A stretch of DNA of 64,000 bases from Candidatus Woesearchaeota archaeon (GCA_964516745.1 CAZEYD010000001.1:101047-165046); one strand, 5' to 3'; numbered from the stretch's first letter, positions 2,427 to 42,550 are shown. The notes: generated by a model from the sequence alone, not told the origin. Program-made: numbers and translations.

Positions 2427-2427
2427 G

Positions 2428-5562: not shown

Positions 5563-5581
5563 ATATTTTTAACCTCTTCGG

Positions 5582-13987: not shown

Positions 13988-13999
13988 TTTGAAGAAAGT

Positions 14000-14433: not shown

Positions 14434-14475
14434 GTTTCTTTTTCCCAGGGCTTTTTCTTTACAAAGAAAAAGGCC
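14434..14475 (-). terminator. Conserved hairpin / oligo-U terminator-like element, copy 2 (abuts the stop of the 2139-aa gene); half-copy at 14401-14424
   Basis: Minus strand: GGCCTTTTTCTTTGTAAAGAAAAAGCCCTGGGAAAAAGAAAC. A perfect 10-bp stem (CTTTTTCTTT/AAAGAAAAAG) is followed by TGGGAAAAAGAAA. Confidence 0.5.
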
Positions 14476-26746: not shown

Positions 26747-27291
26747 CAATCACTCCTTCCAATTTTTCTCTAGGACTCTTCACACCCTCAATATCCAATT
26801 CCTCGACCTCCAAAACACCTTCTATCATCATTTATTTTCTTAGAATTTACAAAAAAATCAACAGCACCAAAAGACATCAAAAACTCTAAACAAAACACCT
26901 CACATACCATCTTTATTTTAAGAATTTATTATATATAAAGTTAAGGATTCTATCACAAACACCCTCAATAAATAGACAAAATATCCAAATTTATTTCTAA
27001 AATATAATCAAAGTAAAAAGAGAAAAATTCTACACTCTAATTTCCTTCAAAATCTAAATTTCAACCTATAAACTTTCTACTAAAATTACTAATTTCATCA
27101 TAGAAATTAACACCATCAATCTAAGCACAGATTTTCTTCACCATAATGAAAAATCCTATCATATTCACCACATAACAGGAAATAAAACCAGAATTTTACC
27201 AAAGTAAATTAAGGCATCCTACATCACAATACAATCAATTCTTTTTATTATTTAAATCTTACTATAAAACTGAATTTCATACAAGAATAGC

Positions 27292-28092: not shown

Positions 28093-29256
28093 TTAGACTA
28101 ATTTTCCCATAACAACTTCATGATAAATCAAATGCAACAACAAAATCTTCAAATCATCATCTTTTCTAGAAACAGATAATTTCGTCAAAGACATATATTT
28201 ATCAAAAGATCCTTTCTTCAGAATTAATAAAGGAAACCCAAACTTCATTAGCAACCAATTAACAATCAATCTAGTAACCCTACTATTCCCATCAGAAAAT
28301 GGATGAAGATGTTGAAATTCATTATGAATATAACCAATTTTTTTTAAGACATCATCTCTCGATTTTATAGAATTAAATAATTTACAGAAATTATTTAATT
28401 TAAAAGACAGGTTTTTATAATTTTCAATTAGAAAATGAAGATTCCCTTTAATCTTAACATTATTATCTCTTCTAATAACTCCGGCACCCCTATGTAAAGA
28501 AAATAAACATAATTTATCCAACATCTCAATATTCTCAACACTCAAATCAACATCCAAATTATCCAAGACATACAAAAATGCCTCATTCAAATTTTTAACA
28601 ATCTGAATATCTTTACTAGATTTATCAGGATAAATATCTTTCGTCAACAATTCAATAGTCTCACCAATACTAACAGTAGCACCCTCTAATTGTGCAGAAC
28701 CTGCCAAAAATTCAAAAATCTTCAAATCAAACGGATTCATCTCCTGTCTCTTAGTGTGCAAAATTAGATCTTTCATATCTTTAAAAGATAAAAATCTCTC
28801 ATTAACATTCAAGTCAACATCATTATATTCAGCAAGATAACCAAACATTTCATGATTAAGCATCACACCCAACTTTGGTCTTTTATTATACATCAAAATA
28901 AACTGATTTTCCAACAAAAAATTAATTATCTTTGTATTATATATATTCCCTGACAATTTCAAAGGATTCAAGTTAGGAATTGCCTTCGGTAAAATCTCTA
29001 AAATCTTTTTAAAATTTCCATTGAACCAAAAATTAATTTCAAAAAAATTCTTCAAGGACCACTTAATAATATTAAAAATCTTTCGTGTTCTTTTATTATT
29101 TATTGGAAGTAAAAAACCCTCCTTAGATTTCCTAACCAAACCTTCACTAATTAAAAGCTCAATCTGAGAGCTAACCCTACCACTAAAACCCAAACCCCTA
29201 GGTCTACAAGGAGCTTTCTCAATTATTTCTGCAAATACATCATATTTTGTAACCAT
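28093..29256 (-). CDS. Fic-domain protein (class II arrangement: inhibitory SxxxEG motif upstream of the Fic core) with an N-terminal wHTH-like region
   Basis: Fic core HNEFQHLHPFSDGNSRVTRLIVNWLL (HxFx[DE]GN[G->S]RxxR). Upstream is FLAGSAQLEGATVSIGETIELL (S-x-x-x-E-G). It has its own TATA-like box 30 nt upstream. Confidence 0.85.
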   Translation of the reverse strand: MVTKYDVFAEIIEKAPCRPRGLGFSGRVSSQIELLISEGLVRKSKEGFLLPINNKRTRKIFNIIKWSLKNFFEINFWFNGNFKKILEILPKAIPNLNPLKLSGNIYNTKIINFLLENQFILMYNKRPKLGVMLNHEMFGYLAEYNDVDLNVNERFLSFKDMKDLILHTKRQEMNPFDLKIFEFLAGSAQLEGATVSIGETIELLTKDIYPDKSSKDIQIVKNLNEAFLYVLDNLDVDLSVENIEMLDKLCLFSLHRGAGVIRRDNNVKIKGNLHFLIENYKNLSFKLNNFCKLFNSIKSRDDVLKKIGYIHNEFQHLHPFSDGNSRVTRLIVNWLLMKFGFPLLILKKGSFDKYMSLTKLSVSRKDDDLKILLLHLIYHEVVMGKLV

Positions 29257-29385: not shown

Positions 29386-32300
29386 TCATCGCCCCTTATC
29401 GTATAATAGTTTAACTTCTGCATCTGATAATTCCCTATTATACATTTTCACATCCTGAATTTTCCCATCCCAAGTACGTACAGAAGCTCCAGTAGTATAA
29501 GCACCAATATAAAATGCAGTAGGAATTGCTGGGCTATAAGCAGTTGTAGTTCCGTCTGGTAATATCACACCATCTACAATAGCATAGCAGTGTGTTCCAT
29601 CATATACTTGTCCATACATATGCCACCCAGTATCGGTGATATCAATAGTGTAATCTCTATACTCAGTCTCACAGTGAACACGAAATTTATCACTAGTCAA
29701 CCAAATTCCTGGATTCCATCTTGCTCCTGTACCAACAAAAACAGTTTTCAAATTAGTAGAATCCCCAGAAACAGGGATGAGAGCAGTATCAGCTTTTGCC
29801 CAAAGTGCAACAGTATAAGGAAGTTCAACATCAACATTAGTATTGAATTGAATAGATCCGGTACTCCCATCAAAATCAGCACCATCACTTCCAATCGTCG
29901 CCCCACGATTCGTCCCATCATTACTATACGGCGTCTTATCCGTCATAATCTCCGAACCAACCGTCTCCGTTTTAGTATAAGTAGACGTCAACGGCATATC
30001 CAAAACTAACCCCTTATTCAAAGACGACGCCGAAGCCTTAGGCTTATAGACGCTATAAAGAGATTGGACTTCTGAAGGTGATAAGGCATAGTCATAGATA
30101 CGAGCATCAGATACAAATGTTTGCTTTCCTCCTCCACTATTCCCAATTTTTATATTAGAAGTAGAATCATCAATTAAATAATTAGACAACCCCGATAAAG
30201 TTGTACCTGATTGAACTACTCCATTTTTATAGATATAAGCTTTTCTAGTATCACTATCATAAGTATAAACTATATTATACCAATTACCATCGTATGGAAG
30301 AGGAGTTGTTAAAGCAGCTCTTCTCGTACCATCAATATAAACTTCTGAACGAATTAGCCCAGAATTATAAGAATCATAAAAATACCAAGAAGGAGATCTA
30401 GATAAGTAAAAACAATCAGATGATTGAGTATAAGTAGAATTTCTTTTTAGCCATAAAGAAAGTGTTATTGCTTCTCCTACATCTAATTGGGAAGCATAAG
30501 GAACTTCAACATAATCGCTTGTTCCAACTAAAAAACTACCTTCACTCTCTCCTTTAACTCCCTTTGCCAAAGTCGCTCCAACAATAATACCATTATTACT
30601 ATAAGGCGTTTTATCTTTAGTATATTTTAATCTCGTCCCATCAACAAAAGGTGTTGCATGGTCTTTTTCTTCTACCTGTCCTCCCCAAACATCTAGATTA
30701 GTATCAGAGGGGTTTGTTCCATATCCTATATTCGGATAAACACCACATTGTAGTTGATTAACACCAGAACTAGGAGCAGTAACAGAGAAGGAATAACGAG
30801 TCCAATCATCTATATCATCTATATCTACGGCTAATCCATTTGCATTTGAAACAAGTGCACCGTTTAACCCAAAAGCATATCTAAGATTAAAATCAGTCGT
30901 TAAATTTACATTTTTTAAATATATTGAACAAGTATATGTTGTATCAGCCTCTACCGTAATAGACTGTGTAAATCTTGAATACCCATATCCTAACCTATCT
31001 GCTGTCAAAGTCCCGTCCGGAGCTATTGAAATATCGGTAGTCACTACACTATTTATCCAATTACTGAACAAATTTCCAGTCCATGAAGAAAAATCATTTG
31101 GGTCCGAGACCAAATTCTCAGTCTCTTCTGTCTTCTCACTATCCCCATCCAACATCCAATGACCAACCAACCCCTTACTCGCCTTTATTGTCAACTTCGG
31201 ATTATAAGAATCATACAATTTCTTAATCTCAGTAGCAGATAACACACGATTGTAAACACGAATATCATCAAGTTTCCCATCAAAATCTTGTCCAAAAATC
31301 GTTGTAGATTTAAAACCAGACGGGACATCACCCTCCTGATAATTAGTAGCGCTCTTATCCAAGGCTCCATCTAAATAAATTTTACAAATTCTATCAGATG
31401 TTCTATATACATAAGTAAAATAAATCCATTGACCGGTAGGAATTACTCCCGAAGAATAAGTATAATGATCATTTGCTCCACCATTCCCATACAATAACGC
31501 TTTACCACCACTTGAATGAATAATTTCATTCCCAACATTAAAGTTATTAAAATCTTGAGGTATATCATTCCTATCTAAATATACCCAACCTGCAACAGTC
31601 CATTCTTGATTAACACTATCATCAAATAATTTATCTGTTACAATAGTACTGCTCCCATCAAATTCCATCGCACCCTCAGTCTTTCCATGCCTATCCGTCG
31701 CAAATGTCGCACCATGAACCACACCATTATTTCCATTCGGAGTCTTATCTTTTTGTATGGTGGATTCTCTTACAAACCACCAGAGCTTTGTTGTTGCATC
31801 AACACCCGCACTTACACCAACATTTGTTACATTAGTAGCTCCAAATCTAGCAGTAGCACCACCATCATCATAACCTATTTTTGCATTCTGCGTAGAACGA
31901 TCCTGTCCAGTTATACAATTAGGAATATCCACAGGACAAATCCCTAATGAACCATCACTCACCGGACTAGAACAACTAGCTCCATTATCACCATTGTAAT
32001 AACATAAACTATAAATTCCAAATGAATTACCTGATGTAGTTAGTGCCTCCCAAAAATTTGGAAGACATCCGGCATTACTATCACCCTGATAAGCCCAATC
32101 ATCAAGATTATTCCAAGTTTGAGCAACCTGATATTCAAATTTAATATTATAACTATAACTAAATGGATGTAATGCATGTCTTGGATGTGTCGACCTATAA
32201 CCATTTGAAATATCTCCTCCCAGGTTAGCAGATGGTGCCCAAACTTCTTTCCAACTAACAGAATCAGTATAATGATAATACCAATCTGCATAAGCATCTC

Positions 32301-32745
32301 CTCCAGTATCCGTTACCGAATCTGACGCCATAACTCTAAAATAATTAATTTGGGCATCTCCAAAATTTGAAGAAACAGCATTTTTAGCTGTAGTTCCAAA
32401 AGCATCAGAAGTAGTAGTAGATGTTTTTGTCCATTCTTGAGCAGTATCCCAAGACCCCACCAACATCCAACCACCACCATCGGTAGTCATATCACAATAA
32501 ACATCAAATGCAGCATCACCACCAGGACCATCAGGATCAATTGAGTAAATTCCATCTCCTGTCGAATCTCCATAATCAAGAATTGCTTTACATGATTTAT
32601 CTGCTTCAACACTACTTCCATCCAACTCCCAATGTAAAACCAAACCCTTCGACAAAGAATCCCCACTACTAATAACCGTCACAGCAAAAACCACACCAAT
32701 CAACAACACCATCCCAATCGACAAAATCAAAATTTTCTTATTCAT
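29386..32745 (-). CDS. Secreted lectin-domain protein, 1119 aa: signal - fibrinogen-like domain - LamG - CBM-like - LamG - LamG
   Basis: Signal MNKKILILSIGMVLLIGVVFAVTVIS (this 26-aa stretch recurs identically from the ATG at 35337 in the next gene). CKAILDYGDSTGDGIYSIDPDGPGGDAAFDVYCDMTTDGGGWMLV. LamG ends DDIRVYNRVLSATEIKKLYDS, DARIYDYALSPSEVQSLYSV and IQDVKMYNRELSDAEVKLLYDKGR*. Confidence 0.85.
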   Translation of the reverse strand: MNKKILILSIGMVLLIGVVFAVTVISSGDSLSKGLVLHWELDGSSVEADKSCKAILDYGDSTGDGIYSIDPDGPGGDAAFDVYCDMTTDGGGWMLVGSWDTAQEWTKTSTTTSDAFGTTAKNAVSSNFGDAQINYFRVMASDSVTDTGGDAYADWYYHYTDSVSWKEVWAPSANLGGDISNGYRSTHPRHALHPFSYSYNIKFEYQVAQTWNNLDDWAYQGDSNAGCLPNFWEALTTSGNSFGIYSLCYYNGDNGASCSSPVSDGSLGICPVDIPNCITGQDRSTQNAKIGYDDGGATARFGATNVTNVGVSAGVDATTKLWWFVRESTIQKDKTPNGNNGVVHGATFATDRHGKTEGAMEFDGSSTIVTDKLFDDSVNQEWTVAGWVYLDRNDIPQDFNNFNVGNEIIHSSGGKALLYGNGGANDHYTYSSGVIPTGQWIYFTYVYRTSDRICKIYLDGALDKSATNYQEGDVPSGFKSTTIFGQDFDGKLDDIRVYNRVLSATEIKKLYDSYNPKLTIKASKGLVGHWMLDGDSEKTEETENLVSDPNDFSSWTGNLFSNWINSVVTTDISIAPDGTLTADRLGYGYSRFTQSITVEADTTYTCSIYLKNVNLTTDFNLRYAFGLNGALVSNANGLAVDIDDIDDWTRYSFSVTAPSSGVNQLQCGVYPNIGYGTNPSDTNLDVWGGQVEEKDHATPFVDGTRLKYTKDKTPYSNNGIIVGATLAKGVKGESEGSFLVGTSDYVEVPYASQLDVGEAITLSLWLKRNSTYTQSSDCFYLSRSPSWYFYDSYNSGLIRSEVYIDGTRRAALTTPLPYDGNWYNIVYTYDSDTRKAYIYKNGVVQSGTTLSGLSNYLIDDSTSNIKIGNSGGGKQTFVSDARIYDYALSPSEVQSLYSVYKPKASASSLNKGLVLDMPLTSTYTKTETVGSEIMTDKTPYSNDGTNRGATIGSDGADFDGSTGSIQFNTNVDVELPYTVALWAKADTALIPVSGDSTNLKTVFVGTGARWNPGIWLTSDKFRVHCETEYRDYTIDITDTGWHMYGQVYDGTHCYAIVDGVILPDGTTTAYSPAIPTAFYIGAYTTGASVRTWDGKIQDVKMYNRELSDAEVKLLYDKGR
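31765..32610 (-). other. Fibrinogen-like YCDxxxxGGGW domain region (copy 2 of 4)
   Basis: Motif as above. The portion after GGGW diverges from the other copies. Confidence 0.55.
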
Positions 32746-32767
32746 TTACAAACACTATACCCACTTT

Positions 32768-32777
32768 TAATTTTAAA
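32768..32777 (-). promoter_or_regulatory. Candidate TATA-like box (ATTTAAAATT on minus strand) ~31 nt upstream of the ATG at 32745
   Basis: It lies in the 42-nt spacer between two LamG genes, with no SD. This suggests the downstream gene can be transcribed independently. Confidence 0.3.
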
Positions 32778-32787
32778 TATTTTTCCA

Positions 32788-35337
32788 TCATCGCCCCTTA
32801 TCGTATAATAATTTAATTTCTGTGTCCGAAAGCGCTCTATTGTAGATTTTGACAGAAGATATATTGCCAGTAGAATAAGATATAGAATCACTTCTATAAT
32901 AATACCTTCCTATATTCCTATAATTAGCAGCACTTGTAGCTAAAGGATACATGCCACTAAATGAGTTACTATCAATTAATTCTCCATTTACATAAAAATT
33001 TATAGAATCACTATCAATAATTGCCCCAACATGACTCCATTCATTCATTTCTACTTCCCCATTATCACTTGATGGTGTAAAATGAGCGGCAGCAACATGT
33101 TGAACATCTATCGTTAAAGAACCATCTGCATCAACTCTAAAATAATTCATATAACCATTATGACTATTGCTACTTCCGTGTTGGAATATATATGTAGAAG
33201 AACTAGGATTTACCCAAGCAGATATAGAAAGTTCGGTTAGCCCTACTAAAAATCCATTAAACCCTGCAACATAATCACTCCCATCAAAACTCATACTATC
33301 TTCCCCAACCGTCGCACCATAATTCTGACCATGATTACTATATGGCGTTTTATCCGTCATTATTTCAGAACCTACTGTATTAGATTTCTTATAAGTAGAC
33401 GTCAAAGGCATATCTAGAACTAAACCTTTCGTCAAAGACGACGCAGCAACCTTATGCTCATACGCATCATAAAGAGATTTTATTTCTGTGGGTGACAAGG
33501 CGTAGTTGTAGATACGAACGTCTGAGATAGAGCCATTTAAAATTGAAGAACTTCTTTTGCCTATAAATAAACTTTCACTATTAACTTGTAAACTTCCACT
33601 ATTCGACCAGTCAGTATCTTTACAGACATTATTAACACAGATATATACTTTACTTCCATCATATTTTGCCACAACATGATACCATTCATTTAATTCTGGA
33701 AGACTACCCCAACCTAGATACTTAATATTTGATTCATCATCAGTAAAATAAGCAAAAAATCCTGACGTTGGATGTAATTCTAAACCATAAGCAGGGCTAC
33801 TAGTGCCACTTTGCTTTCTTACAATTCCTGGCCAACCTCCTGATATACCATCTAAATATACCCATGAGCTTATTGTGACATTCCCAGAAATATCTAAGCT
33901 ATCATCATCAACAATCTCCACATAATCATCAACACCATCAAAACTCATCGCACCTTCACTCTTCCCATGCCTATCTGTCGTCGAAGAGGGAGTATCTAAT
34001 CCAGAGTTTGTAACTCCATGATTTTCAAAAGGAGTACTGTCAGTTACCTTACTTTGTCTTGTTCCATTAATAAAAGAAGTTGCATGATCTTTCAACTCAA
34101 CCTGAAAGTCATTTATAGTTATAATATCGCCACCAACAGTACCAGCCGGTGTATGAAAAAGCCAAATAGAACTAGCGTCACAATTCTCCACAATTTCAAA
34201 ATAACCAGTGTCTTCATCAAACGACCATGTACTAGCAGCAGAAGAATGATATGTATTAGCTCTATTACCAGGCAAAGTGTGTGGGTCCCCATTTTTGAAC
34301 AAATATCCACTTAGGGTAATAATATTACCATTATAATTGACTCCATTATGAACTGTTAAATACTGAGCTCCTCCCTCAACCATGGTAAAAGTTAAATCTT
34401 GCCCATCTCTTTCTAATGTATTATAAGGAGTATATGGACTAAGAGTACCTACTGCTAGATTTTCAGTATATTCATCATATGTATCCCCATCCAAAGGCCA
34501 ATGCCCAACCAAACCCTTACTCGACTTCATCGCCAACTTCGGATTATAAGAATCATAAAGTTTACCAATCTCTTTCTCAGACAACGCACGATTGTAGATA
34601 CGGACGTCGTCCATTGAGCCATCGAAGCTTTTAGCATAATGATAACTTGTTGATCCTGTTGACCTCCCTATGCTACCAAAACTAAAATACTCTGTACCGG
34701 GGTAAGTACCACCATCCATACTCCCTGTATAAAACATTTCTCCATTCTGATACCATCGAACAGGTCTATTGGTTTCATTGTTTGCAAAAACAATTACAAA
34801 ATGAGACCAAGCTCCTCTAACATCATCAGGGAAAGCACCTGTACCAAAATTATATCCGTTCTGTCGTGCTGCTTCTGTTCTAAAATATTTGCCAGAACTA
34901 AATATTTCTATATGTCTTATTGTACCACTACCTCTAAATAAAGCCATTCTATCAACTGCGTCGGTGTCTACATAAATCCAGACACTATAAGTGCAACCGT
35001 CAGGATAATTATTTGTACTAGTTATGCTCTCAGGCATAATAATATTATCACCATATGTTACTCCATCTACAGTTCCACTTCCATCAAAACTCATCGCCCC
35101 TTCACTTTTTCCCATCCTATCCGTAGTCAAAGTTGCCCCACTATTCGCTCCATGATTTTCATAAGGCGTCGAATCTCCAACTCTATTCGTCGCAGAATCA
35201 TAATCATCACCGTCCAAAGACCAATGACCAATCAATCCCTTCGACAAAGAATCAGTAGTACTAATAACCGTAACAGCAAAGACAACACCTATCAACAACA
35301 CCATACCAATCGACAAAATCAAAATTTTCTTATTCAT
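32788..35337 (-). CDS. Secreted lectin-domain protein, ~849 aa: signal - LamG - variable beta-domain - LamG - LamG
   Basis: The track start at 35370 is a TTG. The ATG at 35337 gives MNKKILILSIGMVLLIGVVFAVTVIS, identical to the paralog. LamG ends MDDVRIYNRALSEKEIGKLYDS, ISDVRIYNYALSPTEIKSLYDAY and ISSVKIYNRALSDTEIKLLYDKGR*. Confidence 0.85.
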   Translation of the reverse strand: MNKKILILSIGMVLLIGVVFAVTVISTTDSLSKGLIGHWSLDGDDYDSATNRVGDSTPYENHGANSGATLTTDRMGKSEGAMSFDGSGTVDGVTYGDNIIMPESITSTNNYPDGCTYSVWIYVDTDAVDRMALFRGSGTIRHIEIFSSGKYFRTEAARQNGYNFGTGAFPDDVRGAWSHFVIVFANNETNRPVRWYQNGEMFYTGSMDGGTYPGTEYFSFGSIGRSTGSTSYHYAKSFDGSMDDVRIYNRALSEKEIGKLYDSYNPKLAMKSSKGLVGHWPLDGDTYDEYTENLAVGTLSPYTPYNTLERDGQDLTFTMVEGGAQYLTVHNGVNYNGNIITLSGYLFKNGDPHTLPGNRANTYHSSAASTWSFDEDTGYFEIVENCDASSIWLFHTPAGTVGGDIITINDFQVELKDHATSFINGTRQSKVTDSTPFENHGVTNSGLDTPSSTTDRHGKSEGAMSFDGVDDYVEIVDDDSLDISGNVTISSWVYLDGISGGWPGIVRKQSGTSSPAYGLELHPTSGFFAYFTDDESNIKYLGWGSLPELNEWYHVVAKYDGSKVYICVNNVCKDTDWSNSGSLQVNSESLFIGKRSSSILNGSISDVRIYNYALSPTEIKSLYDAYEHKVAASSLTKGLVLDMPLTSTYKKSNTVGSEIMTDKTPYSNHGQNYGATVGEDSMSFDGSDYVAGFNGFLVGLTELSISAWVNPSSSTYIFQHGSSNSHNGYMNYFRVDADGSLTIDVQHVAAAHFTPSSDNGEVEMNEWSHVGAIIDSDSINFYVNGELIDSNSFSGMYPLATSAANYRNIGRYYYRSDSISYSTGNISSVKIYNRALSDTEIKLLYDKGR

Positions 35338-35373
35338 CTTTCTCTCCCAGCAATCCAATGTCCGATTCAATTC

Positions 35374-35745
35374 TCATTTTAAAAGCACCTTTATCTGTTT
35401 AATTAAAACCTCAGATTTCATTATCTCCCCTTCAACAATTTTCTTATTAAAAATAACAAATACGCTAATATTCCCATAATCTGCTTGCATTCTCAAATCA
35501 TATAAATGTCTTAAATGATCATAAAAAAATTCACCCAAAAACTTAGCACACAACTCCCAAATCTTCTGATGATTCTTCGGAACCTTTACCTCTTTAAACA
35601 TCAAATAAGCAATAACAGCCTTCTCAAAAGAAAAATACAAACGATTAGCTGAAGTCTTTAAACTCAAATTAAGATTATTTCTTGCTACCTTCAAAAATTC
35701 ATCTGCAACTTCTAATTCATTTAAATATCTTTTTTCCAATCTCAA
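35374..35745 (-). CDS. HEPN-domain protein (pair A)
   Basis: All-helical 123 aa. It has the A..FL..A..NL start, VPKNHQKIWEL (conserved His helix) and LYDLRMQADYG (R-x4-Y), as in classical archaeal HEPN partners of minimal nucleotidyltransferases. It overlaps the upstream NTase by 29 nt. Confidence 0.7.
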   Translation of the reverse strand: MRLEKRYLNELEVADEFLKVARNNLNLSLKTSANRLYFSFEKAVIAYLMFKEVKVPKNHQKIWELCAKFLGEFFYDHLRHLYDLRMQADYGNISVFVIFNKKIVEGEIMKSEVLIKQIKVLLK

Positions 35746-36505
35746 CCCCCACCTTCTTTAAATCATTTATATTTTTAACTTTATATTTTTTATTAAAAAA
35801 ATCCAAAGCATCCAATTTAGTCTTTGGAAGAAATCCCTCCAAAAAACAATAAACATAAGACAAATTCACCAAAGCACTATCAAAAAGTTCCTTATCTTTT
35901 CCAACTATCAAATCATATACAGAATTCACAAATTCAAAATAATGCTTCTGAGCCTTAGAATATTCTAAAACATAAGACGACTGATAAATAACCACCCCAT
36001 TAAATAAATTATCAAAATTAAAACTATCTTTATGAAAATTTAAAATTACTCCAAAAGATCTCTCAATTTTACTTTTCATATCATTTAAAGATTTAAGGTC
36101 CTCAACTTTAAGATTATCACCAAGCAAAAGAATATCAATATCATTAAATTTCTTCCCCTTTAAAACACTTCCAAAAAGCAAAGCAGCTTTTATTTTCTTC
36201 TTATCAAATAAGGAGAAAACTAGAACATCAACCACAAGTTTTACAAAAGAATCCAAAGACTTAAACTCCATCGAATCAAGATAATATTTAAACTGTAAAA
36301 CAGAATTATCCCTTGTTAAACCAACAATCCTTTGATTACCATAATTTTTAATTCTAATAAATCCTCTCTCCTCAAGAAACCTTAATGCTTCAAAAGAAGA
36401 ATTTCTCCCAGTTTTAGCTTCACGAATAAGAACCTCTATACTTTTTTCTTCACCACTAAGAAGAATCTTTTCCATCAACTTAAGCATACTCTTTTGATAT
36501 TTCAT
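35717..36505 (-). CDS. wHTH + minimal nucleotidyltransferase (MNT) protein (pair A)
   Basis: The N-terminal ~70 aa are wHTH-like (SIEVLIREAKTGRNSSFEALRFLEERGFIRI). NTase signature LLFGSVLKGKKFNDIDILLLGD (GS-x9-11-DxD). Confidence 0.75.
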   Translation of the reverse strand: MKYQKSMLKLMEKILLSGEEKSIEVLIREAKTGRNSSFEALRFLEERGFIRIKNYGNQRIVGLTRDNSVLQFKYYLDSMEFKSLDSFVKLVVDVLVFSLFDKKKIKAALLFGSVLKGKKFNDIDILLLGDNLKVEDLKSLNDMKSKIERSFGVILNFHKDSFNFDNLFNGVVIYQSSYVLEYSKAQKHYFEFVNSVYDLIVGKDKELFDSALVNLSYVYCFLEGFLPKTKLDALDFFNKKYKVKNINDLKKVGVEIGKKIFK

Positions 36506-36553
36506 TGTATTCTTATAATACCCTACTGTATTCTTTTAATATTATAAACTTTC

Positions 36554-36620
36554 CTATTATCAACCAATCCATAGACAAAATCTTTTTTCCAACACCTAAT
36601 ATTTGTTTATTCTTATTCAT
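36554..36620 (-). pseudogene. Fossil of a LamG-cassette 5' end (signal-peptide region)
   Basis: The minus strand from 36620, ATGAATAAGAA..AAAGATTTTGTCTATGGATTGGTTGATAATAGG, aligns with ATGAATAAGAAAATTTTGATTTTGTCGATTGGGATGGTGTTGTTGATTGG at 32745 and 35337. No ORF follows. Confidence 0.4.
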
Positions 36621-36640
36621 TTTTATTTAACCTTTATTTA

Positions 36641-36760
36641 ACCAATCATCCTCATACCAAACTCGCCTAATCCTCAAACACAATTAATTTCTTTTCACTC
36701 ACCATAATCTCACCTAACAAAACCAAACAAAATCAATTAATTAATACTTATCACATCGCA
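36641..36760 (-). pseudogene. Fossil of a Bro-N gene start plus its upstream leader
   Basis: 36706-36760 aligns by eye at roughly 85% identity with 27742-27795 (..AACAAAACCAAACAAAATCAA..TTATCACAT..). From the ATG at 36705: MVSEKKLIVFED*, then WYEDDW in another frame. This is a deleted version of MVDEKKLIVFEDKKIRRVW.EDxWW. Confidence 0.6.
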
Positions 36761-36842
36761 TTCTCCATAAATCAGCTAGTTTCTGTTATTGTCATCTGTT
36801 CACGGTTATTTATTTACAGTCAACCGTTTTTGACTTCAAACA

Positions 36843-39800
36843 TCATCGTCCCTTGTCGTATAATAATTTCACTTCAGTATCCGACAACGCTCTATTGTAA
36901 ATTTTAGTACTAGCAATATTTCCAACAACCAAATAAGTTGAACCATCGTTACTAGCTCCAATTCTTGTAGGAGATGAAGCAATGACATAAGCAGGCAAAT
37001 TATATTGTTTGTTAAATTCCCCATTAACAAATACCCTAACTACACTCCCATCATACGAAGCAACAAGATGCCACCATTCATTCAACGTTCCAGTAATTCC
37101 AGTATCACCGGCAGTCCAACCCAGTCCTGCATTGGCTCCAATCGTTGCAACAAGAGTATTAGCAGCAGACATCCCAATCCAAAATTCACTATTTCCAACA
37201 CTAGTATCCGTAGGATTTTTATGCAAAGTACACCTATAAGTTCCAGCTCCACCAGTCATTCTAAACCAAGAGGAAACTGTTAATCCATCTGGATTAGAAG
37301 GTAGAAAATCATCATTAATTTTTATATAGTCATTAACAAAACTCGCACCATCCTCCCCAATCGTCGCACCATAATTCTGCCCATCATTACTATACGGAGT
37401 CCTATCCGCCACAACCTCAGAACCAACAGTTTCAGTCTTAACATCATCAAGAGTCAACGGCATATCTAAAACCAAACCCTTTGTCAAAGAAGACGCAGCA
37501 GCCTTAGGCTCATACGCATCATAAATAGATTCTATCTCGTCAGAAGAAAGAGCATAGTTATAGATACGGAAATCGTCAATTGAGCCACTGAACCATCTTG
37601 CAGAATCTGTTGAAAAACCTCTACCAATATTAATGTTTGAAAAGGTTGAAGGCCAAGATGTATGAGATGCATTTAATTTATTATCACCATCGATATAAGC
37701 ATATAAACGATTATTTGTTTTATCTCCCACAATACTAATATGATACCATGTATCTTCTGCCAAATCTGTAACTATTGTTTCCCCTCTCCAAGTGCTATCT
37801 AAGGAAACGCCTACATTTAGCTGACCTCCTGTGTATTGCTCAATTCTAACTCCAGCATTTGAAGAACCAGAAACTGGGAACTCTGTATGCAATATGTTTC
37901 TATAATTAGAAACACTAGTCGAATAAAACCACAATCCTATTGTAAAATCTTCAATATTATCAATATTAACAATATCAATATAATCTCCCCCATCAAAACT
38001 CATCGCACCTTCACTCTTTCCCATCCTATCCGTCGCCAACGTCGCCCCATAAATAATACCATTATTTCCATTTGTAGTTTTATCAATCATATCATTTAAT
38101 TCAGACACAGAATCTTCTCTAATAAAAACATACATTATCCCATCATCATATGCATCATTTGGAGATAACAATGTCTCTGTCATTAAACTTCCACCACCAT
38201 TAGTTCCAAGTGTACCCCTTATAGCATTTTCTTGACAACTACCTGTAGTACTTGGAAATGATACTTCGTTATACCAATTCCCCCCGTCCCCCCAACAACC
38301 AATTCCACCAGCCTGATTACATGACCCAACAGATACTTTATTATACCAAATTCTAAATGGATCATTACCATTACCATTTGTTTGAAATATTAAATTTGAT
38401 CCATACCAATTAGACGCATCTGCATTATTTGTATAACTTCTTGTCCAGCTAGGATTAGCATTGTTTATAGTTCTAGTTGTCTGACTTTTTAAGGTTCCAG
38501 TATTTGTACCTAAAAACGCTGCCGCCATTCTTTTAACTTGTCCAGAAGTATATCTGTAATCTATTAAAATCTCATCCCAATTTGTTACATCATAATATGT
38601 AGGAGATAAATAATCATCATTGTTCGATAAAGAACCTTGCTCTGTAGAAGCTGTCCAAAAAGATGTGCCCCATTGTTGTGTTGTCGCATCATTAGTGTTT
38701 AATCTTAATGCCATCGTCCACCCACCACCATCCGTCGTCATATCACAATAAACCTGATACGAATCCTCACCACCAGGACCATCAGGATCAATTGTATAAA
38801 CTCCATCACCATAAGAATCACCACTATCAAGAATAGCCTTACACGACCACGACCAATCTGGCTTAACACTATCCCCACTCATATCCCAATGCCCAACCAA
38901 CCCCTTACCCGACTTTATCGTCAACTTGGGATTATACGAATCATACAACTTCCCAATCTCACTTTCAGATAACGCACGATTATAGATACGAACATCGTCG
39001 ATTAAGCCGTTGAAATATACATCACTCCCATGTCCTCCAGTTGCTATCTTAGGGCTAACGGAACTCACTAGGTATGCTTGACCTGTAGATTTAGTCTCTT
39101 CCCACTCACCATCAAGATATCTTTTCAAACTAGTTGTATCAAATGTCCCAACAACATGATGCCACTCACCATCTTCAATATCCGTCCCAGTATATGCATC
39201 CCAATAACCACTATTATCACCTTTTCTTGCTGAAAATGCAGGAACTCCTTGTCTAATTCTCATAGCTATCCCAGCTGAGCCCACCCCAGTCCCAAGAGTG
39301 ACAACACCACCTTCCGAAGTAGTTCCATCAGTTTTTATCCACATAGAAAGAGTCATAGCATTCTCATTATTCAAATCCGTTGCATCACTCCCTAAATCAA
39401 TATAATCATCTCCTCCATCAAAATCCATCGCACCCTCGCTCTTCCCCATTCTATCAGTCGTAAAAGTCGCACCAAGAACCGTCCCATCATTTTCATTCGG
39501 AGTTTTATCCTTTTGTATAGTAGACTTTCTTACCCACATTGTCAAATGCATCCCAGTCACACTATTTGTTCCATGTTGCGATTCTCCACCAAATTGACCA
39601 TGGTAGTTCGGATTAAAGTCATTATGCGTAGCTGCATTAGAAGAAGTAAAGGTAGCCCTATCTACATCATTATTCTCATTGTCATTATGCCAAATACGGA
39701 GATAACTTTGTTCAAAATAACCACCACTAGCAACACCAACCGAGTATGTTGCAGGATATTGGGCATAATACCAATAGTCTACTTGGCCACCTCCAGGGTC

Positions 39801-40475
39801 TGCATTACCAAGCATGTCTCGTATATTATTATGACTTCCTGTATTTACGATTAGCTGGTCTTCCCTAGGAGCGGTTGATTTAAACATCATCTCTACAAAA
39901 GGAACCATATCGTAAGCTTTACTTTTTCCCGTTCCAGATGGTGAGGTAAGAGCGGTCGTATACCCTTCCTGCCACCAACCATCCCACCGAGAGTGATATG
40001 TTGTATCCCTATTATCTGCAGCATGCACTAAAGTCCAACCACCACCATCCGTCGTCATATCACAATAAACATCAAATGAATCCTCACCACCAGAACCATC
40101 AGGATCAATAGTATAAACACCATCCCCCGTAGAATCTCCATAATCAAGAATAGTTTTACAAGATCTATCTGCTTCAACACCATACCCATCCAACTCCCAA
40201 TGACCAACCAAGCCCTTCGACAATGAATCCCCACTAGTCAAAACCGTCACAGCCAACACAGTCCCGACCGCCAAAATCATCACGACCGCCAAAATTAAAA
40301 GAAACATTCTCCTGTTTACCCGTTTACCTGCAATCTGTTTTTCTGTAATACGTCTTCCATCTTTATGGTTCCCCGTTTTCCTGTTCTTCTGTCCCCCCGA
40401 CAAACCGACAAACCGCCTCGTAGAGGTTCTCGCACCTCCTTGGTAACCAGCCGACAATCCGATTTTCTTAACCAT
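36843..40475 (-). CDS. Secreted lectin-domain protein, 1210 aa as drawn: (basic leader?) - TM/signal - fibrinogen-like - LamG - fibrinogen-like - LamG - LamG
   Basis: The ATG at 40475 overlaps the HEPN stop (ATGGTTAA). The paralog-like hydrophobic signal starts only at M57 (ATG 40307, MFLLILAVVMILAVGTVLAVTVLTSGDSLSKGL), so the true start is uncertain. It has two YCDMTTDGGGWT cores. LamG ends IDDVRIYNRALSESEIGKLYDS, IDDFRIYNYALSSDEIESIYDAY and IASTKIYNRALSDTEVKLLYDKGR*. Confidence 0.85.
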   Translation of the reverse strand: MVKKIGLSAGYQGGARTSTRRFVGLSGGQKNRKTGNHKDGRRITEKQIAGKRVNRRMFLLILAVVMILAVGTVLAVTVLTSGDSLSKGLVGHWELDGYGVEADRSCKTILDYGDSTGDGVYTIDPDGSGGEDSFDVYCDMTTDGGGWTLVHAADNRDTTYHSRWDGWWQEGYTTALTSPSGTGKSKAYDMVPFVEMMFKSTAPREDQLIVNTGSHNNIRDMLGNADPGGGQVDYWYYAQYPATYSVGVASGGYFEQSYLRIWHNDNENNDVDRATFTSSNAATHNDFNPNYHGQFGGESQHGTNSVTGMHLTMWVRKSTIQKDKTPNENDGTVLGATFTTDRMGKSEGAMDFDGGDDYIDLGSDATDLNNENAMTLSMWIKTDGTTSEGGVVTLGTGVGSAGIAMRIRQGVPAFSARKGDNSGYWDAYTGTDIEDGEWHHVVGTFDTTSLKRYLDGEWEETKSTGQAYLVSSVSPKIATGGHGSDVYFNGLIDDVRIYNRALSESEIGKLYDSYNPKLTIKSGKGLVGHWDMSGDSVKPDWSWSCKAILDSGDSYGDGVYTIDPDGPGGEDSYQVYCDMTTDGGGWTMALRLNTNDATTQQWGTSFWTASTEQGSLSNNDDYLSPTYYDVTNWDEILIDYRYTSGQVKRMAAAFLGTNTGTLKSQTTRTINNANPSWTRSYTNNADASNWYGSNLIFQTNGNGNDPFRIWYNKVSVGSCNQAGGIGCWGDGGNWYNEVSFPSTTGSCQENAIRGTLGTNGGGSLMTETLLSPNDAYDDGIMYVFIREDSVSELNDMIDKTTNGNNGIIYGATLATDRMGKSEGAMSFDGGDYIDIVNIDNIEDFTIGLWFYSTSVSNYRNILHTEFPVSGSSNAGVRIEQYTGGQLNVGVSLDSTWRGETIVTDLAEDTWYHISIVGDKTNNRLYAYIDGDNKLNASHTSWPSTFSNINIGRGFSTDSARWFSGSIDDFRIYNYALSSDEIESIYDAYEPKAAASSLTKGLVLDMPLTLDDVKTETVGSEVVADRTPYSNDGQNYGATIGEDGASFVNDYIKINDDFLPSNPDGLTVSSWFRMTGGAGTYRCTLHKNPTDTSVGNSEFWIGMSAANTLVATIGANAGLGWTAGDTGITGTLNEWWHLVASYDGSVVRVFVNGEFNKQYNLPAYVIASSPTRIGASNDGSTYLVVGNIASTKIYNRALSDTEVKLLYDKGR
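38110..38860 (-). other. Fibrinogen-like YCDxxxxGGGW domain region (copy 3 of 4)
   Basis: WSCKAILDSGDSYGDGVYTIDPDGPGGEDSYQVYCDMTTDGGGWTMAL. It occupies the slot that holds a CBM-like or other beta-domain in the two paralogs. Confidence 0.55.
39525..40175 (-). other. Fibrinogen-like YCDxxxxGGGW domain region (copy 4 of 4)
   Basis: RSCKTILDYGDSTGDGVYTIDPDGSGGEDSFDVYCDMTTDGGGWTLVHAADN...NSVTGMHLTMWVR. It is collinear with 23965-24625 in a tail-fibre-type gene. Confidence 0.65.
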
Positions 40476-40941
40476 TCAAAACCACCTCTACTTTTTCAAC
40501 AATTTCCTTAGATTTAATAACCAAAATATCAAGTAACTCCTTGTTAACTTCTGTTTCAATTCCATATTGAAATTCCTCTCTCAAAGATTTAGCATTTTTA
40601 TTTGTCATCTGCTCAGTAGTTCTAATAAAAGCAACATCATCCAAATCCAAATCAATATCTTTAATTTCAATCAAATATTCAATGACGCTAATTGTACATT
40701 CATGATTCTTAGATTCATAACCTCTATCAAACAAAATAGCTAATAAAGAATGATACATTGCATAATACAATTGAGAAACAGCCCAATCTTCAAACCCTGA
40801 TCTAATACTAAGATCAGCCGCTTTCAAATTATGTTTCGCTTTCTTAATATGTCCCTCAGCAACACCCCTATCAGAACTAATCTTTTTCATTCTCTTTTCA
40901 TTTTTTAAACACCAATCCAATTTCGACTTATAATCTCGCAT
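40468..40941 (-). CDS. HEPN-domain protein (pair B)
   Basis: 157 aa, helical. AEGHIKKAKHNLKAADL start, GYESKNHECTISVI His helix, SLREEFQYG (R-x4-Y). It overlaps the NTase by 14 nt and the downstream giant ORF by 8 nt. Confidence 0.7.
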   Translation of the reverse strand: MRDYKSKLDWCLKNEKRMKKISSDRGVAEGHIKKAKHNLKAADLSIRSGFEDWAVSQLYYAMYHSLLAILFDRGYESKNHECTISVIEYLIEIKDIDLDLDDVAFIRTTEQMTNKNAKSLREEFQYGIETEVNKELLDILVIKSKEIVEKVEVVLNG

Positions 40942-41503
40942 CCTTTAACACCTCCACAAAAATATCTTCACCTTTCAGAACAACACCTGTCTTAATTATA
41001 TCCAGAATAGATTTCCTTTTTAATTTGATTTCTTTTATCAAATCGTTTTTCGTTAAAATCAAAGGAACAACCGGCCTAGATCTAACTTTTGAAATATCCA
41101 AACACAATTTAGAAACTTCTCTTAAATTACAACCAGAGAACAACACATCCACATCATTAAACTTATTTTTTTTCAAAACAGAACCAAAAAGAACAATCAA
41201 ATCACAATTAAAATTATCTAAATCATTAGCATAAACACCAGAAAAACCTTTTAAATTTCGCCGACCCTCAATTAAAATTAATTCTATAACTTTAACTAAT
41301 TCTAAATTATCAAAATTAATTCTATAATATATCGCATTTCCCATCCTCTCAGGCAAAACCCATTTCTTCTTTTCCAAATCTTTCAAAATCTTAAAAGCAC
41401 TTCCAACACTAATCTCAAGCTCTTTCGAAATTTGATTTATATTTTTCAATTCGAAATACCTTAAAAGATAATTCAATATTTTGTTTGTATTTTTTGTCAC
41501 CAT
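40928..41503 (-). CDS. wHTH + minimal nucleotidyltransferase protein (pair B)
   Basis: wHTH-like NINQISKELEISVGSAFKILKDLEKKKWV. NTase signature LFGSVLKKNKFNDVDVLFSG. Confidence 0.75.
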   Translation of the reverse strand: MVTKNTNKILNYLLRYFELKNINQISKELEISVGSAFKILKDLEKKKWVLPERMGNAIYYRINFDNLELVKVIELILIEGRRNLKGFSGVYANDLDNFNCDLIVLFGSVLKKNKFNDVDVLFSGCNLREVSKLCLDISKVRSRPVVPLILTKNDLIKEIKLKRKSILDIIKTGVVLKGEDIFVEVLKDARL

Positions 41504-41671: not shown

Positions 41672-42550
41672 TTATATTTTTTTATTTTCATCATTTTTTC
41701 TCCTACTAACTTTTTTATTTTTTCTCTTCGTCCCATTTGTTAAACCCAAAACACCCTTACTAGAAACAACCTTCTTCCCAGATTTTTTCTCCAAATCTTT
41801 TCTAGCATCTCCAGCAACACTTCCACCTAACTTAGCAGCAACTAAATTTTTATCAAACCCTTTAACATCTTTATTTCTCACAATTTCAGTAGTAGAAGCT
41901 TCCCCCAGCATCCCGAAAATCAACTCCAAATCTGTCATATGGTCTCTCAAGTTTTGATTCTTGAATTTCGGTTCCAAACCCTTAATCCCCTTATGCTCAT
42001 CAATAGAAACTCCAAACGTCGCCTTCGCAATCTCATTCGTTAAAATAGCATATTCCTTCCCCTCTTTTACCCCCCTATCATCCCACTCCTGAGTCAAATC
42101 CTGCCTAATAGCAATTCCTCTTAATCTCTTTTCAATCCAACTCTTAGGATAACCTTTTTTCTCATAATACAACCTAGCTCTATCCTGAGCCAACTCCGGA
42201 TTCTCAATCTCATCAATCCTCTCACTCCCAACCTTCGCCAACCAAATTTTAAATGGTTCTGCTCTCTTTGAAGGAATCGATTGAATAATTCTGAAAAGGC
42301 CCTCTTTGTTTGCACAATCTGTTAGATACATTTTGCCATCAGAAGACTTCATTTTCAGTTGTATCCAAATTGGGGACAACTGAAGTTGCTCAAACTCTCG
42401 AACTTTGACTTTCCCCCAATATTGTCTTGGAGTTGGACTATTTGTTAAAGAAAACACTACATCAACAATGGAAAACCACCAATCCGCACCATGCCAGACT
42501 CGTCTAATTTTCTTATCTTCAAACACAATCATCTTTTCTCCTACCATCAT
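41672..42550 (-). CDS. Bro-N domain / DinD-like protein, copy 2
   Basis: MIVFEDKKIRRVWHGADWWFSIVDVV..., KRAEPFKIWLAKVGSERIDEIENPELAQDR, NLRDHMTDLELIFGMLGEASTTEI. Its ATG overlaps the stop of the 2072-aa gene by 4 nt. Confidence 0.8.
   Translation of the reverse strand: MMVGEKMIVFEDKKIRRVWHGADWWFSIVDVVFSLTNSPTPRQYWGKVKVREFEQLQLSPIWIQLKMKSSDGKMYLTDCANKEGLFRIIQSIPSKRAEPFKIWLAKVGSERIDEIENPELAQDRARLYYEKKGYPKSWIEKRLRGIAIRQDLTQEWDDRGVKEGKEYAILTNEIAKATFGVSIDEHKGIKGLEPKFKNQNLRDHMTDLELIFGMLGEASTTEIVRNKDVKGFDKNLVAAKLGGSVAGDARKDLEKKSGKKVVSSKGVLGLTNGTKRKNKKVSRRKNDENKKI

What the first reader, a model, noticed from the sequence alone, without database searches (positions are those of the whole stretch)
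29386..40475. Three LamG-type genes share identical ends and linkers but carry swapped middle domains (domain-cassette architecture)
The 5' ends at 32640-32745 and 35235-35337 are near-identical, encoding the same 26-aa signal peptide. A fossil third copy lies at 36554-36620. The 3' ends at 29386-29460, 32788-32860 and 36843-36915 all encode (K/N)(I/M)YNR(A/E)LSD(T/A)E(I/V)KLLYDKGR*. Linker 1, YDSYNPKL(T/A)(I/M)K(A/S)(S/G)KGLVGHW, occurs at ~31150-31230, ~34490-34570 and ~38880-38960. Linker 2, ASSL(N/T)KGLVLDMPLT...TVGSE(I/V)..D(K/R)TPYSN.G, occurs at ~29930-30040, ~33340-33450 and ~37400-37500. Between these conserved joints the content differs. The N-terminal slot is a fibrinogen-like domain in two genes and absent in one. 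The middle slot is a CBM-like domain, another beta domain, or a second fibrinogen-like domain. Conserved joints around variable inserts suggest homologous exchange of binding modules.
Basis: seen in the sequence. Interest (0 to 1): 0.6.

Follow-up and report, generated by a model that had tools for sequence, protein, structure and literature searches.

The report
Mosaic triple-LamG surface lectin genes
Three neighbouring genes of a tiny symbiotic archaeon encode surface lectin-like proteins built on one conserved three-domain frame whose binding parts have been swapped like cassettes, partly with relatives in CPR bacteria, which suggests how such cells might change what they attach to.

Summary
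The window comes from a ~1 Mb Pacearchaeota (DPANN) genome.

Genes A (29386-32745), B (32788-35337) and C (36843-40475) each encode an N-terminal hydrophobic anchor plus three Laminin_G_3 units.

The extra domains sit between that first strand and the rest of the LamG. They are a fibrinogen-like YCDxxxxGGGW domain, a phage/GTA head-spike-fibre (CBM-like) domain, and a small beta domain. This looks like nested insertion.

Identity switches sharply between joints (70-100% aa) and cores (10-30%). Most LamG cores have one much closer relative (48-73%) in a different protein, often at another position, without the insert, or in CPR bacteria.

The joints group by lineage and share codons beyond expectation (z 4.7-7.3 within genomes, 0 or below between genomes). 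That is a recombination mosaic, not vertical divergence.

No reverse transcriptase and no silent cassettes were found, so this is evolutionary shuffling rather than programmed switching. A host-attachment lectin function is inferred from the domain families and the literature.

The parts
29386..32745 (-). Gene A, 1119 aa. Anchor, then unit 1 (beta1 | fibrinogen-like domain | LamG1), unit 2 (beta1 | GTA-spike-fibre/CBM-like domain | LamG2), unit 3 (LamG3).
   Evidence: ORF and translation. Pfam finds 3x Laminin_G_3 (146 bits) and Fibrinogen_C. NCBIfam finds GGGWT_bact at 51-96 and GTA_spike_fiber at 541-701.
32788..35337 (-). Gene B, 849 aa from the ATG (the ORF runs on to a TTG at 35370). Anchor, then LamG1 without insert, unit 2 (beta1 | small beta domain | LamG2), LamG3.
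   Evidence: 3x Laminin_G_3, 228 bits. The insert matches the CBM-type profile only over its last 39 residues.
36843..40475 (-). Gene C, 1210 aa. A 56-aa basic N-extension, anchor, unit 1 (beta1 | fibrinogen-like 1 | LamG1), unit 2 (beta1 | fibrinogen-like 2 | LamG2), LamG3.
   Evidence: GGGWT_bact twice, 128 bits. An N-extension before the anchor is also present in the G017 homologues.
32668..32745 (-). Signal peptide/anchor of A. The same 26 aa occur in B at 35260-35337. C's anchor is at 40233-40307.
   Evidence: This is the only strongly hydrophobic 19-aa window in each protein (Kyte-Doolittle mean 2.9-3.05). The rest of each protein stays at 1.2 or below. Repeat D6.
31126..31269 (-). Joint 1 of A: end of LamG1 (DDIRVYNRVLSATEIKKLY), linker, and beta1 of unit 2 (KGLVGHWMLDG). 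Copies in B at 34468-34611 and in C at 38856-38999.
   Evidence: Repeat D3. Amino-acid identity 71-82% among paralogues. Same-codon excess z = 5.1. A, B and C form a clade, support 90/93.
29851..30108 (-). Joint 2 of A: end of LamG2, linker, LDMPLT-type beta1, and the TVGSE..DKTPYSN.G head of LamG3. Copies in B at 33268-33522 and in C at 37320-37574.
   Evidence: Repeat D1. Identity 70-72%. Same-codon z = 4.7. Clade with P0015, support 100/99. The joint is found in 94 representative clusters at E <= 1e-30.
31756..32607 (-). Fibrinogen-like YCDxxxxGGGW domain nested in LamG1 of A.
   Evidence: 64-67% identical to domains in ~900-1860-aa proteins, two of which carry NCBI names (Candidatus Shapirobacteria, Elusimicrobiota). 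Only the first ~50 aa resemble C's copies.
30622..31125 (-). GTA/phage head-spike-fibre (CBM-like) domain nested in LamG2 of A.
   Evidence: NF048003, E 5.8e-20, 72.6 bits against a cut-off of 36. Inserts in relatives hit CBM_4_9. The close homologue L031 unit 2 (65%) lacks this insert.
39516..40175 (-). Fibrinogen-like domain 1 of C. It is shared with the fibre-type gene D (21821-26749).
   Evidence: 75% aa identity to D residues 719-930. 88.2% nt identity over 543 nt, 39528-40070 against 23972-24514.
38091..38855 (-). Fibrinogen-like domain 2 of C, nested in LamG2.
   Evidence: Fibrinogen_C and GGGWT_bact match its head. The body has no close relative.
34048..34467 (-). Small beta domain nested in LamG2 of B.
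   Evidence: It shares only the terminal QVELKDHATSFINGTR strand region with CBM-type inserts (hhalign probability 82%).
35374..36505 (-). HEPN (35374-35745) and nucleotidyltransferase (35717-36505) gene pair between C and B. A second pair lies at 40468-41503, upstream of C.
   Evidence: Pfam HEPN, Polbeta and NTP_transf_2.

Best explanation
A, B and C are tandem members of a large family of N-terminally anchored, extracellular lectin-like proteins found in DPANN archaea and CPR bacteria.

Architecture:
- The frame is a chain of (here) three LamG jelly-roll units.
- Each unit starts with a conserved first strand and ends with the conserved DVRIYNRALSxxEIxxLY strand.
- A further binding domain can sit inside a unit, in the loop after the first strand. 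It can be fibrinogen-like, phage-spike/CBM-like, or a small beta domain.

Evolution:
- The conserved edge strands and linkers ('joints') are kept by structure. They are also kept alike among paralogues of one lineage by recombination or gene conversion.
- The LamG cores and nested domains between the joints are old, very divergent cassettes. They have been exchanged between genes, between positions in the protein, between lineages and across the archaea/bacteria divide.
- This is shuffling on an evolutionary time scale, not programmed switching.

The likely function, which is inferred, is binding of glycans on host cells or surfaces.
For: Shown:
- Each protein has three Laminin_G_3 domains and one hydrophobic N-terminal segment.
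- Every unit begins with KGL[VI]xxxxL and ends with the RIYNRALS motif.
- Close homologues of A's LamG1 (P0017, 73%) and LamG2 (L031 unit 2, 65%) are contiguous LamG domains. In them the first strand directly precedes DxTPYxNxG. So A's 285-aa and 170-aa domains are insertions after that strand.
- The LamG that follows the fibrinogen-like domain in A has no first strand of its own. The CPR homologue P0013 has one (PIAYWKFDEG).
- In both AlphaFold models the isolated first strand (residues 19-23) has pLDDT 86-88 between low-confidence flanks. The LamG core is at 70-96.
- A solved LamG-like domain (5hon) aligns from the first-strand region of the profile.
- Most cores are mosaic. They are 25-36% identical to the other two genes. 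Each of the following has a single far closer partner elsewhere:
  - A fibrinogen-like domain: 64-67%, to large proteins including ones NCBI names as Shapirobacteria and Elusimicrobiota.
  - A LamG3: 63%, P0010.
  - B LamG1: 69%, the last unit of P0022 and L019.
  - C LamG2: 50%, the first unit of a Falkowbacteria protein.
  - C LamG3: 48-50%, non-terminal units in L023, L029 and L038.
- B's LamG2 and LamG3 reach only about 35-41% to any sampled protein.
- On the core tree, position in the protein is random (33 changes against 32.9 when shuffled). Cross-position pairs are supported at 98-100.
- Joints: within-genome amino-acid identity is 0.69-0.89, against 0.54-0.63 between genomes. The same-codon excess is z = 4.7-7.3 within G000 and within G017, and z <= 0 between genomes.
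- Joint DNA trees group A, B and C together, and group the four dispersed G017 paralogues together.
- A family member with the same joints lies beside bacterial NusA and trigger factor.
- The joint occurs in 265 representative clusters at E <= 1e-10. Protein lengths fall in classes of about 450, 690, 850 and over 1000 aa.

From the literature: LamG surface proteins of DPANN and CPR organisms are proposed host-attachment factors. In a cultivated nanohaloarchaeon they are operonic with autotransporter-like fibres (PMC10266531, PMC11310336).
Against: - No recombination event is recent. Joints are only 72-90% identical in DNA, and the longest exact matches are 23-36 nt. The best core partners are 48-73% identical.
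- Part of the joint conservation is plain structural constraint, since joints are 54-63% identical even between genomes.
- After P0015 was added, monophyly of A, B and C for joint 2 is not resolved (AU p = 0.33).
- Docking of the first strand into the LamG sandwich rests on pLDDT and on homology. Model coordinates could not be inspected.
- The nested domains were poorly modelled (pLDDT 25-60).
- Function was not tested.
Confidence: 0.72

Rival explanations
1. Plain vertical divergence. An ancestral three-LamG gene duplicated. The joints stayed alike only through purifying selection, the cores drifted apart, and no exchange of modules took place.
For: The conserved islands coincide with the generally conserved start and end of LamG_3-type domains. 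They are also conserved between genomes at 54-63%.
Against: - It cannot explain cores that are 25-36% identical to their neighbours yet 48-73% identical to units of other proteins, at other positions and in other lineages.
- It cannot explain codon sharing at joints that is seen only within genomes.
- It cannot explain the presence, absence or replacement of unrelated nested domains.
Confidence: 0.06
2. Programmed, rapid cassette switching of the antigenic or phase-variation type, as in pilE/pilS, vlsE or tprK. The joints would serve as recombination sites used during the life of a population.
For: - There are conserved flanks around variable segments.
- The copies are in tandem.
- Exact matches of 23-36 nt could support RadA-dependent exchange.
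Against: - The genome holds only three full-length genes, each with a start codon and an anchor. There are no promoterless partial cassettes.
- Joint DNA identity is only 72-90%.
- No recombinase or invertase lies beside the genes.
- There is no reverse transcriptase.
- A second record of the locus (L050) is 100% identical over 23.3 kb and appears to be the same assembly, so it carries no population information.
Confidence: 0.07
3. Assembly or binning artefact. The genes would be chimeras joined at repeated joints by the metagenome assembler.
For: This is a MAG assembled from short reads. The contig name of the matching public record (k141_...) suggests a k-mer size of 141. The locus contains internal repeats.
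Against: - The longest exact match between the paralogues is 36 nt, far below an assumed k of 141.
- All three reading frames are intact over 2.5-3.6 kb.
- The same skeleton and the same kinds of insert are seen in many independent assemblies.
Confidence: 0.03

Closest known systems
LamG/concanavalin-like surface proteins of DPANN archaea and CPR bacteria, for example the LamG operon of Ca. Nanohalococcus occultus (PMC10266531)
   Same: - Secreted or membrane-bound proteins with several LamG domains.
- Clustered with autotransporter-like fibre genes in large surface-protein islands.
- Proposed role in attachment to hosts.
   Different: In the papers I found, these proteins are described only at the level of domain counts. 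The fixed three-unit frame, the domains nested after the first strand, and the mosaic history of cores against joints are not described there.
DUF2341-LamG arrays of Patescibacteria, ~1800 aa (hits P0005, P0006, P0009, P0011, P0014)
   Same: - They carry the same fibrinogen-like domain body as gene A (63-65% identity; the shorter DUF2341 proteins P0012 and P0013 reach 66-67%).
- They carry arrays of LamG_3 domains with the same end motif.
   Different: - They have an N-terminal DUF2341 domain and six or more LamG units.
- The fibrinogen-like domain lies in tandem before a complete LamG, not nested.
- They are bacterial.
- A, B and C lack DUF2341.
Modular mosaicism of phage tail-fibre and receptor-binding proteins
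   Same: - Conserved joining segments flank exchangeable receptor-binding modules.
- One nested module of A belongs to a phage/GTA head-spike-fibre family.
- A possibly viral contig (L053) carries a LamG core 60% identical to A's LamG1.
   Different: These are cellular genes with N-terminal anchors, lying on the genome's largest contig (371 kb). No virion genes are adjacent to them.
Mosaic evolution of bacterial outer-membrane and surface proteins by local recombination (for example the E. coli OMP families, PMC12175518)
   Same: Conserved framework segments are under purifying selection and alternate with variable exposed segments replaced by recombination.
   Different: - Here whole folded domains are exchanged, not loops.
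- The exchange crosses paralogue positions and the archaea/bacteria boundary.
Hypervariable Ig-domain protein module of Thermococcales (PMC8416519)
   Same: An archaeal locus centred on a large, highly variable multi-domain surface protein, with domain shuffling and accessory genes.
   Different: It has a different fold (Ig against LamG), different neighbouring genes and a different lineage. No conserved-joint or nested-insert frame is reported.

Membership tests
Laminin_G_3 / concanavalin A-like lectin superfamily (PF13385) | Profile match above the curated cut-off | tested here: met
   146.5, 228.1 and 213.9 bits against a cut-off of 27.6, with three stretches per protein.
Laminin_G_3 / concanavalin A-like lectin superfamily (PF13385) | Jelly-roll beta-sandwich fold | tested here: met
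   The AlphaFold LamG cores have pLDDT 70-96 and are all-beta. Foldseek best hits are the lectin-like jelly-roll subdomains of solved structures, probability 1.00. The profile hits the solved LamG-like domains 4qvs and 5hon.
Laminin_G_3 / concanavalin A-like lectin superfamily (PF13385) | Carbohydrate or Ca2+ binding | not testable with these tools
   No binding-site analysis or assay was possible.
Fibrinogen-like YCDxxxxGGGW domain (NCBIfam NF040941, GGGWT_bact) | Profile match above the cut-off, with the YCDxxxxGGGW motif | tested here: met
   A 69.3 bits, C 128.4 bits (two copies), D 69.5 bits, against a cut-off of 30. YCDMTTDGGGW can be read directly.
Fibrinogen C-terminal globular domain (PF00147) | Full-length FReD fold, including the ligand-binding P subdomain | tested here: inconclusive
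   Pfam covers only profile positions 3-72 of 221. The body of C's second copy was modelled at pLDDT 25-40.
Phage/GTA head spike fibre domain (NCBIfam NF048003) | Profile match above the cut-off | tested here: met
   A residues 541-701 cover profile positions 5-171 of 182, at 72.6 bits against a cut-off of 36. B's insert is not a member. It has no NCBIfam hit, and hhalign matches only its last 39 residues.
Programmed cassette (antigenic-variation) systems such as pilE/pilS, vlsE, tprK | One expression site plus silent, promoterless partial donor cassettes | tested here: not met
   The genome has only three family members. All are full-length with a start codon and an anchor.
Programmed cassette (antigenic-variation) systems such as pilE/pilS, vlsE, tprK | Variants within one population | not testable with these tools
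The second public record of the locus (L050) is 100% identical to the window, apparently the same assembly.
Diversity-generating retroelement targets | Reverse transcriptase and a template/variable repeat pair | tested here: not met
   No RVT_1 match in the whole genome, while the control genomes did match. The differences between cores are not adenine-specific; the cores are about 30% identical.
DUF2341-LamG arrays of Patescibacteria | N-terminal DUF2341 (PF10102) domain | tested here: not met
   There is no PF10102 hit in A, B or C. It is present in hits P0005, P0006, P0009 and P0011-P0014.

The most novel reading that the evidence does not exclude
The conserved joints may act as recombination adapters for a shared pool of lectin cassettes (LamG cores, fibrinogen-like bodies, phage-spike/CBM domains). 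These cassettes would circulate among DPANN archaea, CPR bacteria and possibly their viruses. Ultra-small episymbionts of two domains of life would then re-tool host attachment by importing ready-made binding domains into a fixed frame. The frame would include an unusual 'domain inside the first loop of LamG' design.
Probability: 0.3. Interest if true: 0.8.

Novelty: new variant of a known kind. Interest (0 to 1): 0.55.

Why it matters
DPANN archaea and CPR bacteria depend on attaching to other cells. Which proteins choose the partner, and how that choice evolves, is largely unknown.

This locus shows a concrete and testable design:
- a fixed LamG frame;
- exchangeable lectin cores;
- binding domains nested inside the cores;
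- cassettes shared across lineages and across the archaea/bacteria boundary.

It provides defined domain boundaries for expression and glycan-binding tests. It also gives a marker, the 85-aa joint, found in at least 265 representative clusters. That marker can be used to track the family in metagenomes and to link cassette content with host range.

Tried and rejected
- **Fossil signal-peptide copy (36554-36620).** A local alignment was no better than 82 of 500 shuffles, so I rejected it as unproven.
- **DGR-type diversification.** There is no reverse transcriptase in the genome.
- **Population variants.** The other public record of the locus (L050) is 100% identical over 23.3 kb, so it carries no independent information.
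- **Pfam on the nested domains of A and B.** No hit even at E <= 1. NCBIfam identified A's insert.
- **Alignment A4 for a model of A unit 1.** MAFFT misplaced the first strand of insert-free units. I dropped it and modelled C unit 2 with alignment A7, which anchors that strand correctly.
- **Ungapped joint comparison between genomes.** It was misaligned by indels and was replaced by pairwise alignment.
- **Model coordinates.** Only pLDDT and secondary structure were used.
- **Regex unit parser.** It misses some units in database proteins. Every cross-position claim in the report therefore rests on BLAST coordinates that I read directly.
- **PHROGs on the P0020 contig.** It gave only weak virion-protein hits, so a viral origin is left open.
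Full report
**Where the window lies.** The window is C1:101047-165046 of a 1.0-Mb, 31% G+C genome in 15 contigs. A genome of the same genus (G017) is the record 'Candidatus Pacearchaeota archaeon SO_2017_LW2_78', so the organism is a DPANN archaeon. Nearly all long ORFs in the window are on the minus strand. They encode very large surface-type proteins with LamG, YadA-stalk-like and fibrinogen-like domains. Bro-N, HEPN/nucleotidyltransferase and Fic genes lie between them.

**Checking the observation.**
- The three genes are A 29386-32745 (1119 aa), B 32788-35337 (849 aa from the ATG) and C 36843-40475 (1210 aa).
They are the 3' ends (D9), linker 1 (D3, 160 nt, 73-78%), linker 2 (D1, 256 nt, 72-75%) and the 5' ends (D6, D4).
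- A and B encode the same first 26 residues, with 89.6% nucleotide identity over 106 nt.
- A codon-aware sliding window shows sharp switches. Islands have 0.7-1.0 amino-acid identity and 0.75-0.9 nucleotide identity. Amino-acid identity falls to 0.0-0.3 within 10-30 codons.
- The 'fossil' copy at 36554-36620 is not above chance. 82 of 500 shuffles scored as high.

**What the joints and slots are.** Each protein has one strongly hydrophobic N-terminal segment and no other. Each has three Laminin_G_3 domains.
- Every unit begins with KGL[VI]GHWxLD, or with KGLVLDMPLT in the last unit. Every unit ends with D[VI]R[IV]YNRALSxxEIxxLY.
- The additional domains lie between that first strand and the DxTPYxNxG...FDG head of the same LamG (alignments A3 and A7).

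Four observations indicate true nested insertions.
1. A's LamG1 and LamG2 have close homologues (P0017, 73%; L031 unit 2, 65%). Those are contiguous LamG domains in which the first strand directly precedes the head.
2. After A's fibrinogen-like domain only five residues precede DKTPNGNNG. The CPR homologue P0013 has a complete LamG with its own first strand at that place.
3. A profile of insert-free units aligns from its first-strand region to the solved LamG-like domain 5hon, at the start of that chain.
4. In AlphaFold models of A unit 2 and C unit 2, the isolated first strand (residues 19-23) has pLDDT 86-88 between low-confidence flanks. The LamG cores reach 70-96.

Coordinates could not be inspected, so the strand pairing itself is inferred.

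**Identity of the nested domains.**
- A 51-96, C 105-150 with a second copy in C unit 2 (Pfam match about residues 553-610), and fibre gene D 718-760 all match NCBIfam 'fibrinogen-like YCDxxxxGGGW'.
- A 541-701 matches 'phage head spike fiber domain' (NF048003, 72.6 bits against a cut-off of 36). Related inserts in other members hit CBM_4_9.
- B's insert shares only the last ~39 residues with that type.

**The family.**
- G017 has four dispersed paralogues with the same skeleton. Their inserts are none, slot 1, none and slot 2.
- A pattern scan of species genomes found 32 loci in DPANN MAGs and CPR MAGs.
- One CPR member sits beside bacterial NusA and trigger factor. Another CPR contig carries RecJ.
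- The 85-aa joint 2 alone finds 265 representative clusters at E <= 1e-10. Protein lengths fall in classes of about 450, 690, 850 and over 1000 aa, as expected for two or three units with or without inserts.

**The mosaic test.** A module-by-protein identity matrix shows that LamG cores of A, B and C are only 25-36% identical to each other. Seven of the nine cores, and two of the nested domains, have one much closer partner, and the partner is a different protein each time.

| Module | Identity | Closest partner |
|---|---|---|
| A fibrinogen-like body | 64-67% | large proteins (~900-1860 aa); two have NCBI names, Shapirobacteria and Elusimicrobiota |
| A LamG1 | 73% | P0017 unit 1, without insert |
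| A LamG2 | 65% | L031 unit 2, without insert |
| A LamG3 | 63% | P0010 |
| B LamG1 | 69% | the last unit of P0022 and L019 |
| C fibrinogen-like 1 | 75% aa; 88% nt over 543 nt | the neighbouring fibre gene D |
| C LamG1 | 49% | P0037 middle unit |
| C LamG2 | 50% | the first unit of a Falkowbacteria protein |
| C LamG3 | 48-50% | non-terminal units of L023, L029 and L038 |

- B's LamG2 and LamG3 have no partner above about 41% among the sampled proteins.
- On a tree of 72 cores, the position label is as scattered as in shuffles (33 changes against 32.9). Cross-position pairs have 98-100 support.
- L031 unit 1 (insert plus core) is unit 2 in a G017 gene.

**The joints behave differently.**
- They are 54-63% identical between genomes, which is structural constraint. 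Within G000 and within G017 they are 69-89% identical.
- Identical residues use the same codon far more often than codon usage predicts within genomes (z = 5.1 and 4.7 in G000; 6.8 and 7.3 in G017). Between genomes the excess is absent (z <= 0).
- DNA trees of the joints group A, B and C together. For joint 1 the support is 90/93. For joint 2 they group with P0015, from a sibling sample, at 100/99.
- The four dispersed G017 genes also group together.

So the joints are young and lineage-specific, while the cores are old and shared across lineages. That requires recombination with breakpoints between joint and core. Either paralogue joints are homogenised by gene conversion, or foreign cores are imported into resident frames, or both.

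**Mechanism and limits.**
- Exact matches between paralogues reach only 23-36 nt, and joint DNA identity is 72-90%.
- No sampled donor is closer than 73%.
- The genome has no silent partial cassettes and no reverse transcriptase. No recombinase lies beside the genes.

I therefore read this as shuffling over evolutionary time, not programmed switching. An assembly chimera is unlikely, because no exact repeat approaches the k-mer size of 141 suggested by the contig name.

The only other public record of the locus is 100% identical to the window, apparently the same assembly. Population-level variation remains untested.

**Function.** Function is inferred.
- LamG, fibrinogen-like and CBM-like domains are typically carbohydrate-binding folds. 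This rests on my own knowledge of these families.
- LamG surface proteins of DPANN and CPR organisms are proposed attachment factors. In a cultivated nanohaloarchaeon they are operonic with autotransporter-like fibres, as they are here (PMC10266531).
- Viruses of these groups also encode LamG proteins (PMC11310336, PMC12911398).

**Novelty.** Four full-text searches found no description of this frame, of the nested inserts, or of the joint-against-core mosaic in DPANN or CPR organisms. Mosaic surface proteins as such are well known (for example PMC12175518). An earlier, unchecked note of this scan reports a similar cassette pattern in CPR DUF2341-LamG arrays. I rate this a new variant of a known kind.

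Noticed in passing
window 39528-40070 vs 23972-24514: The first fibrinogen-like domain of LamG gene C and the one inside the 1642-aa YadA-stalk-type fibre gene D are 88.2% identical in DNA over 543 nt. This is the most recent-looking module transfer in the window, and it links two different protein architectures.
   Followed up: partly
window 35374-36505 and 40468-41503: HEPN plus nucleotidyltransferase (wHTH) gene pairs sit directly upstream of B and C. The HEPN stop overlaps C's long start codon (ATGGTTAA). A Fic gene (28093-29256) follows A, and Bro-N genes lie at 41672-42550 and 20891-21799.
   Followed up: partly
L022 (Falkowbacteria contig JBAXLJ010000001.1), 50-13947: In a CPR bacterium, a 698-aa triple-LamG family member is flanked by two ~1950-aa proteins with VGIGT-type repeats. 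This is the same LamG-plus-fibre island layout as in this archaeal window.
   Followed up: partly
L053 (jgi 3300045924 Ga0496407_002313), 839-16341: This contig has tightly packed large ORFs without signal peptides. P0020 (773 aa) on it carries a LamG core 60% identical to A's LamG1 and a CBM-type domain ending in QLEKKDHATPFVNGTR. PHROGs gives weak hits to virion structural and tail-fibre families. It may be a virus that shares cassettes with the cellular genes.
   Followed up: partly
L031 (CAZTFL01, labelled Woesearchaeota) and L028 (JAEWUG01, labelled Nanoarchaeota): The joint 2 and LamG3 regions of these two genes are almost identical (branch lengths 0.02-0.06) although the MAGs carry different labels. 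They may be the same species under two names, or there may have been a recent transfer.
   Followed up: no
L020, L039, L045, L047, L049: Family members lie on contigs of MAGs labelled 'uncultured Gammaproteobacteria'. These are probably mis-binned or mislabelled DPANN or CPR contigs.
   Followed up: no
window 32746-32787: The 42-nt gap between B and A contains AAATATTTAAAATTAAAA about 25-35 nt before A's ATG. This is a TATA-box-like element, so A may have its own promoter.
   Followed up: no
window 40308-40475: C has a 56-residue Gly/Arg/Lys-rich extension before its hydrophobic anchor. The G017 homologues have 35-45-residue extensions at the same place, whereas A and B start directly at MNKK. 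Topology or processing may differ between the paralogues.
   Followed up: no
L052 (ena ERZ27316756 k141_770394): In a sibling sample, P0010 (with an A-like LamG3) lies in tandem after another family member and before a VGIGT-repeat fibre gene that itself contains a LamG. The starts and stops of these genes overlap.
   Followed up: partly
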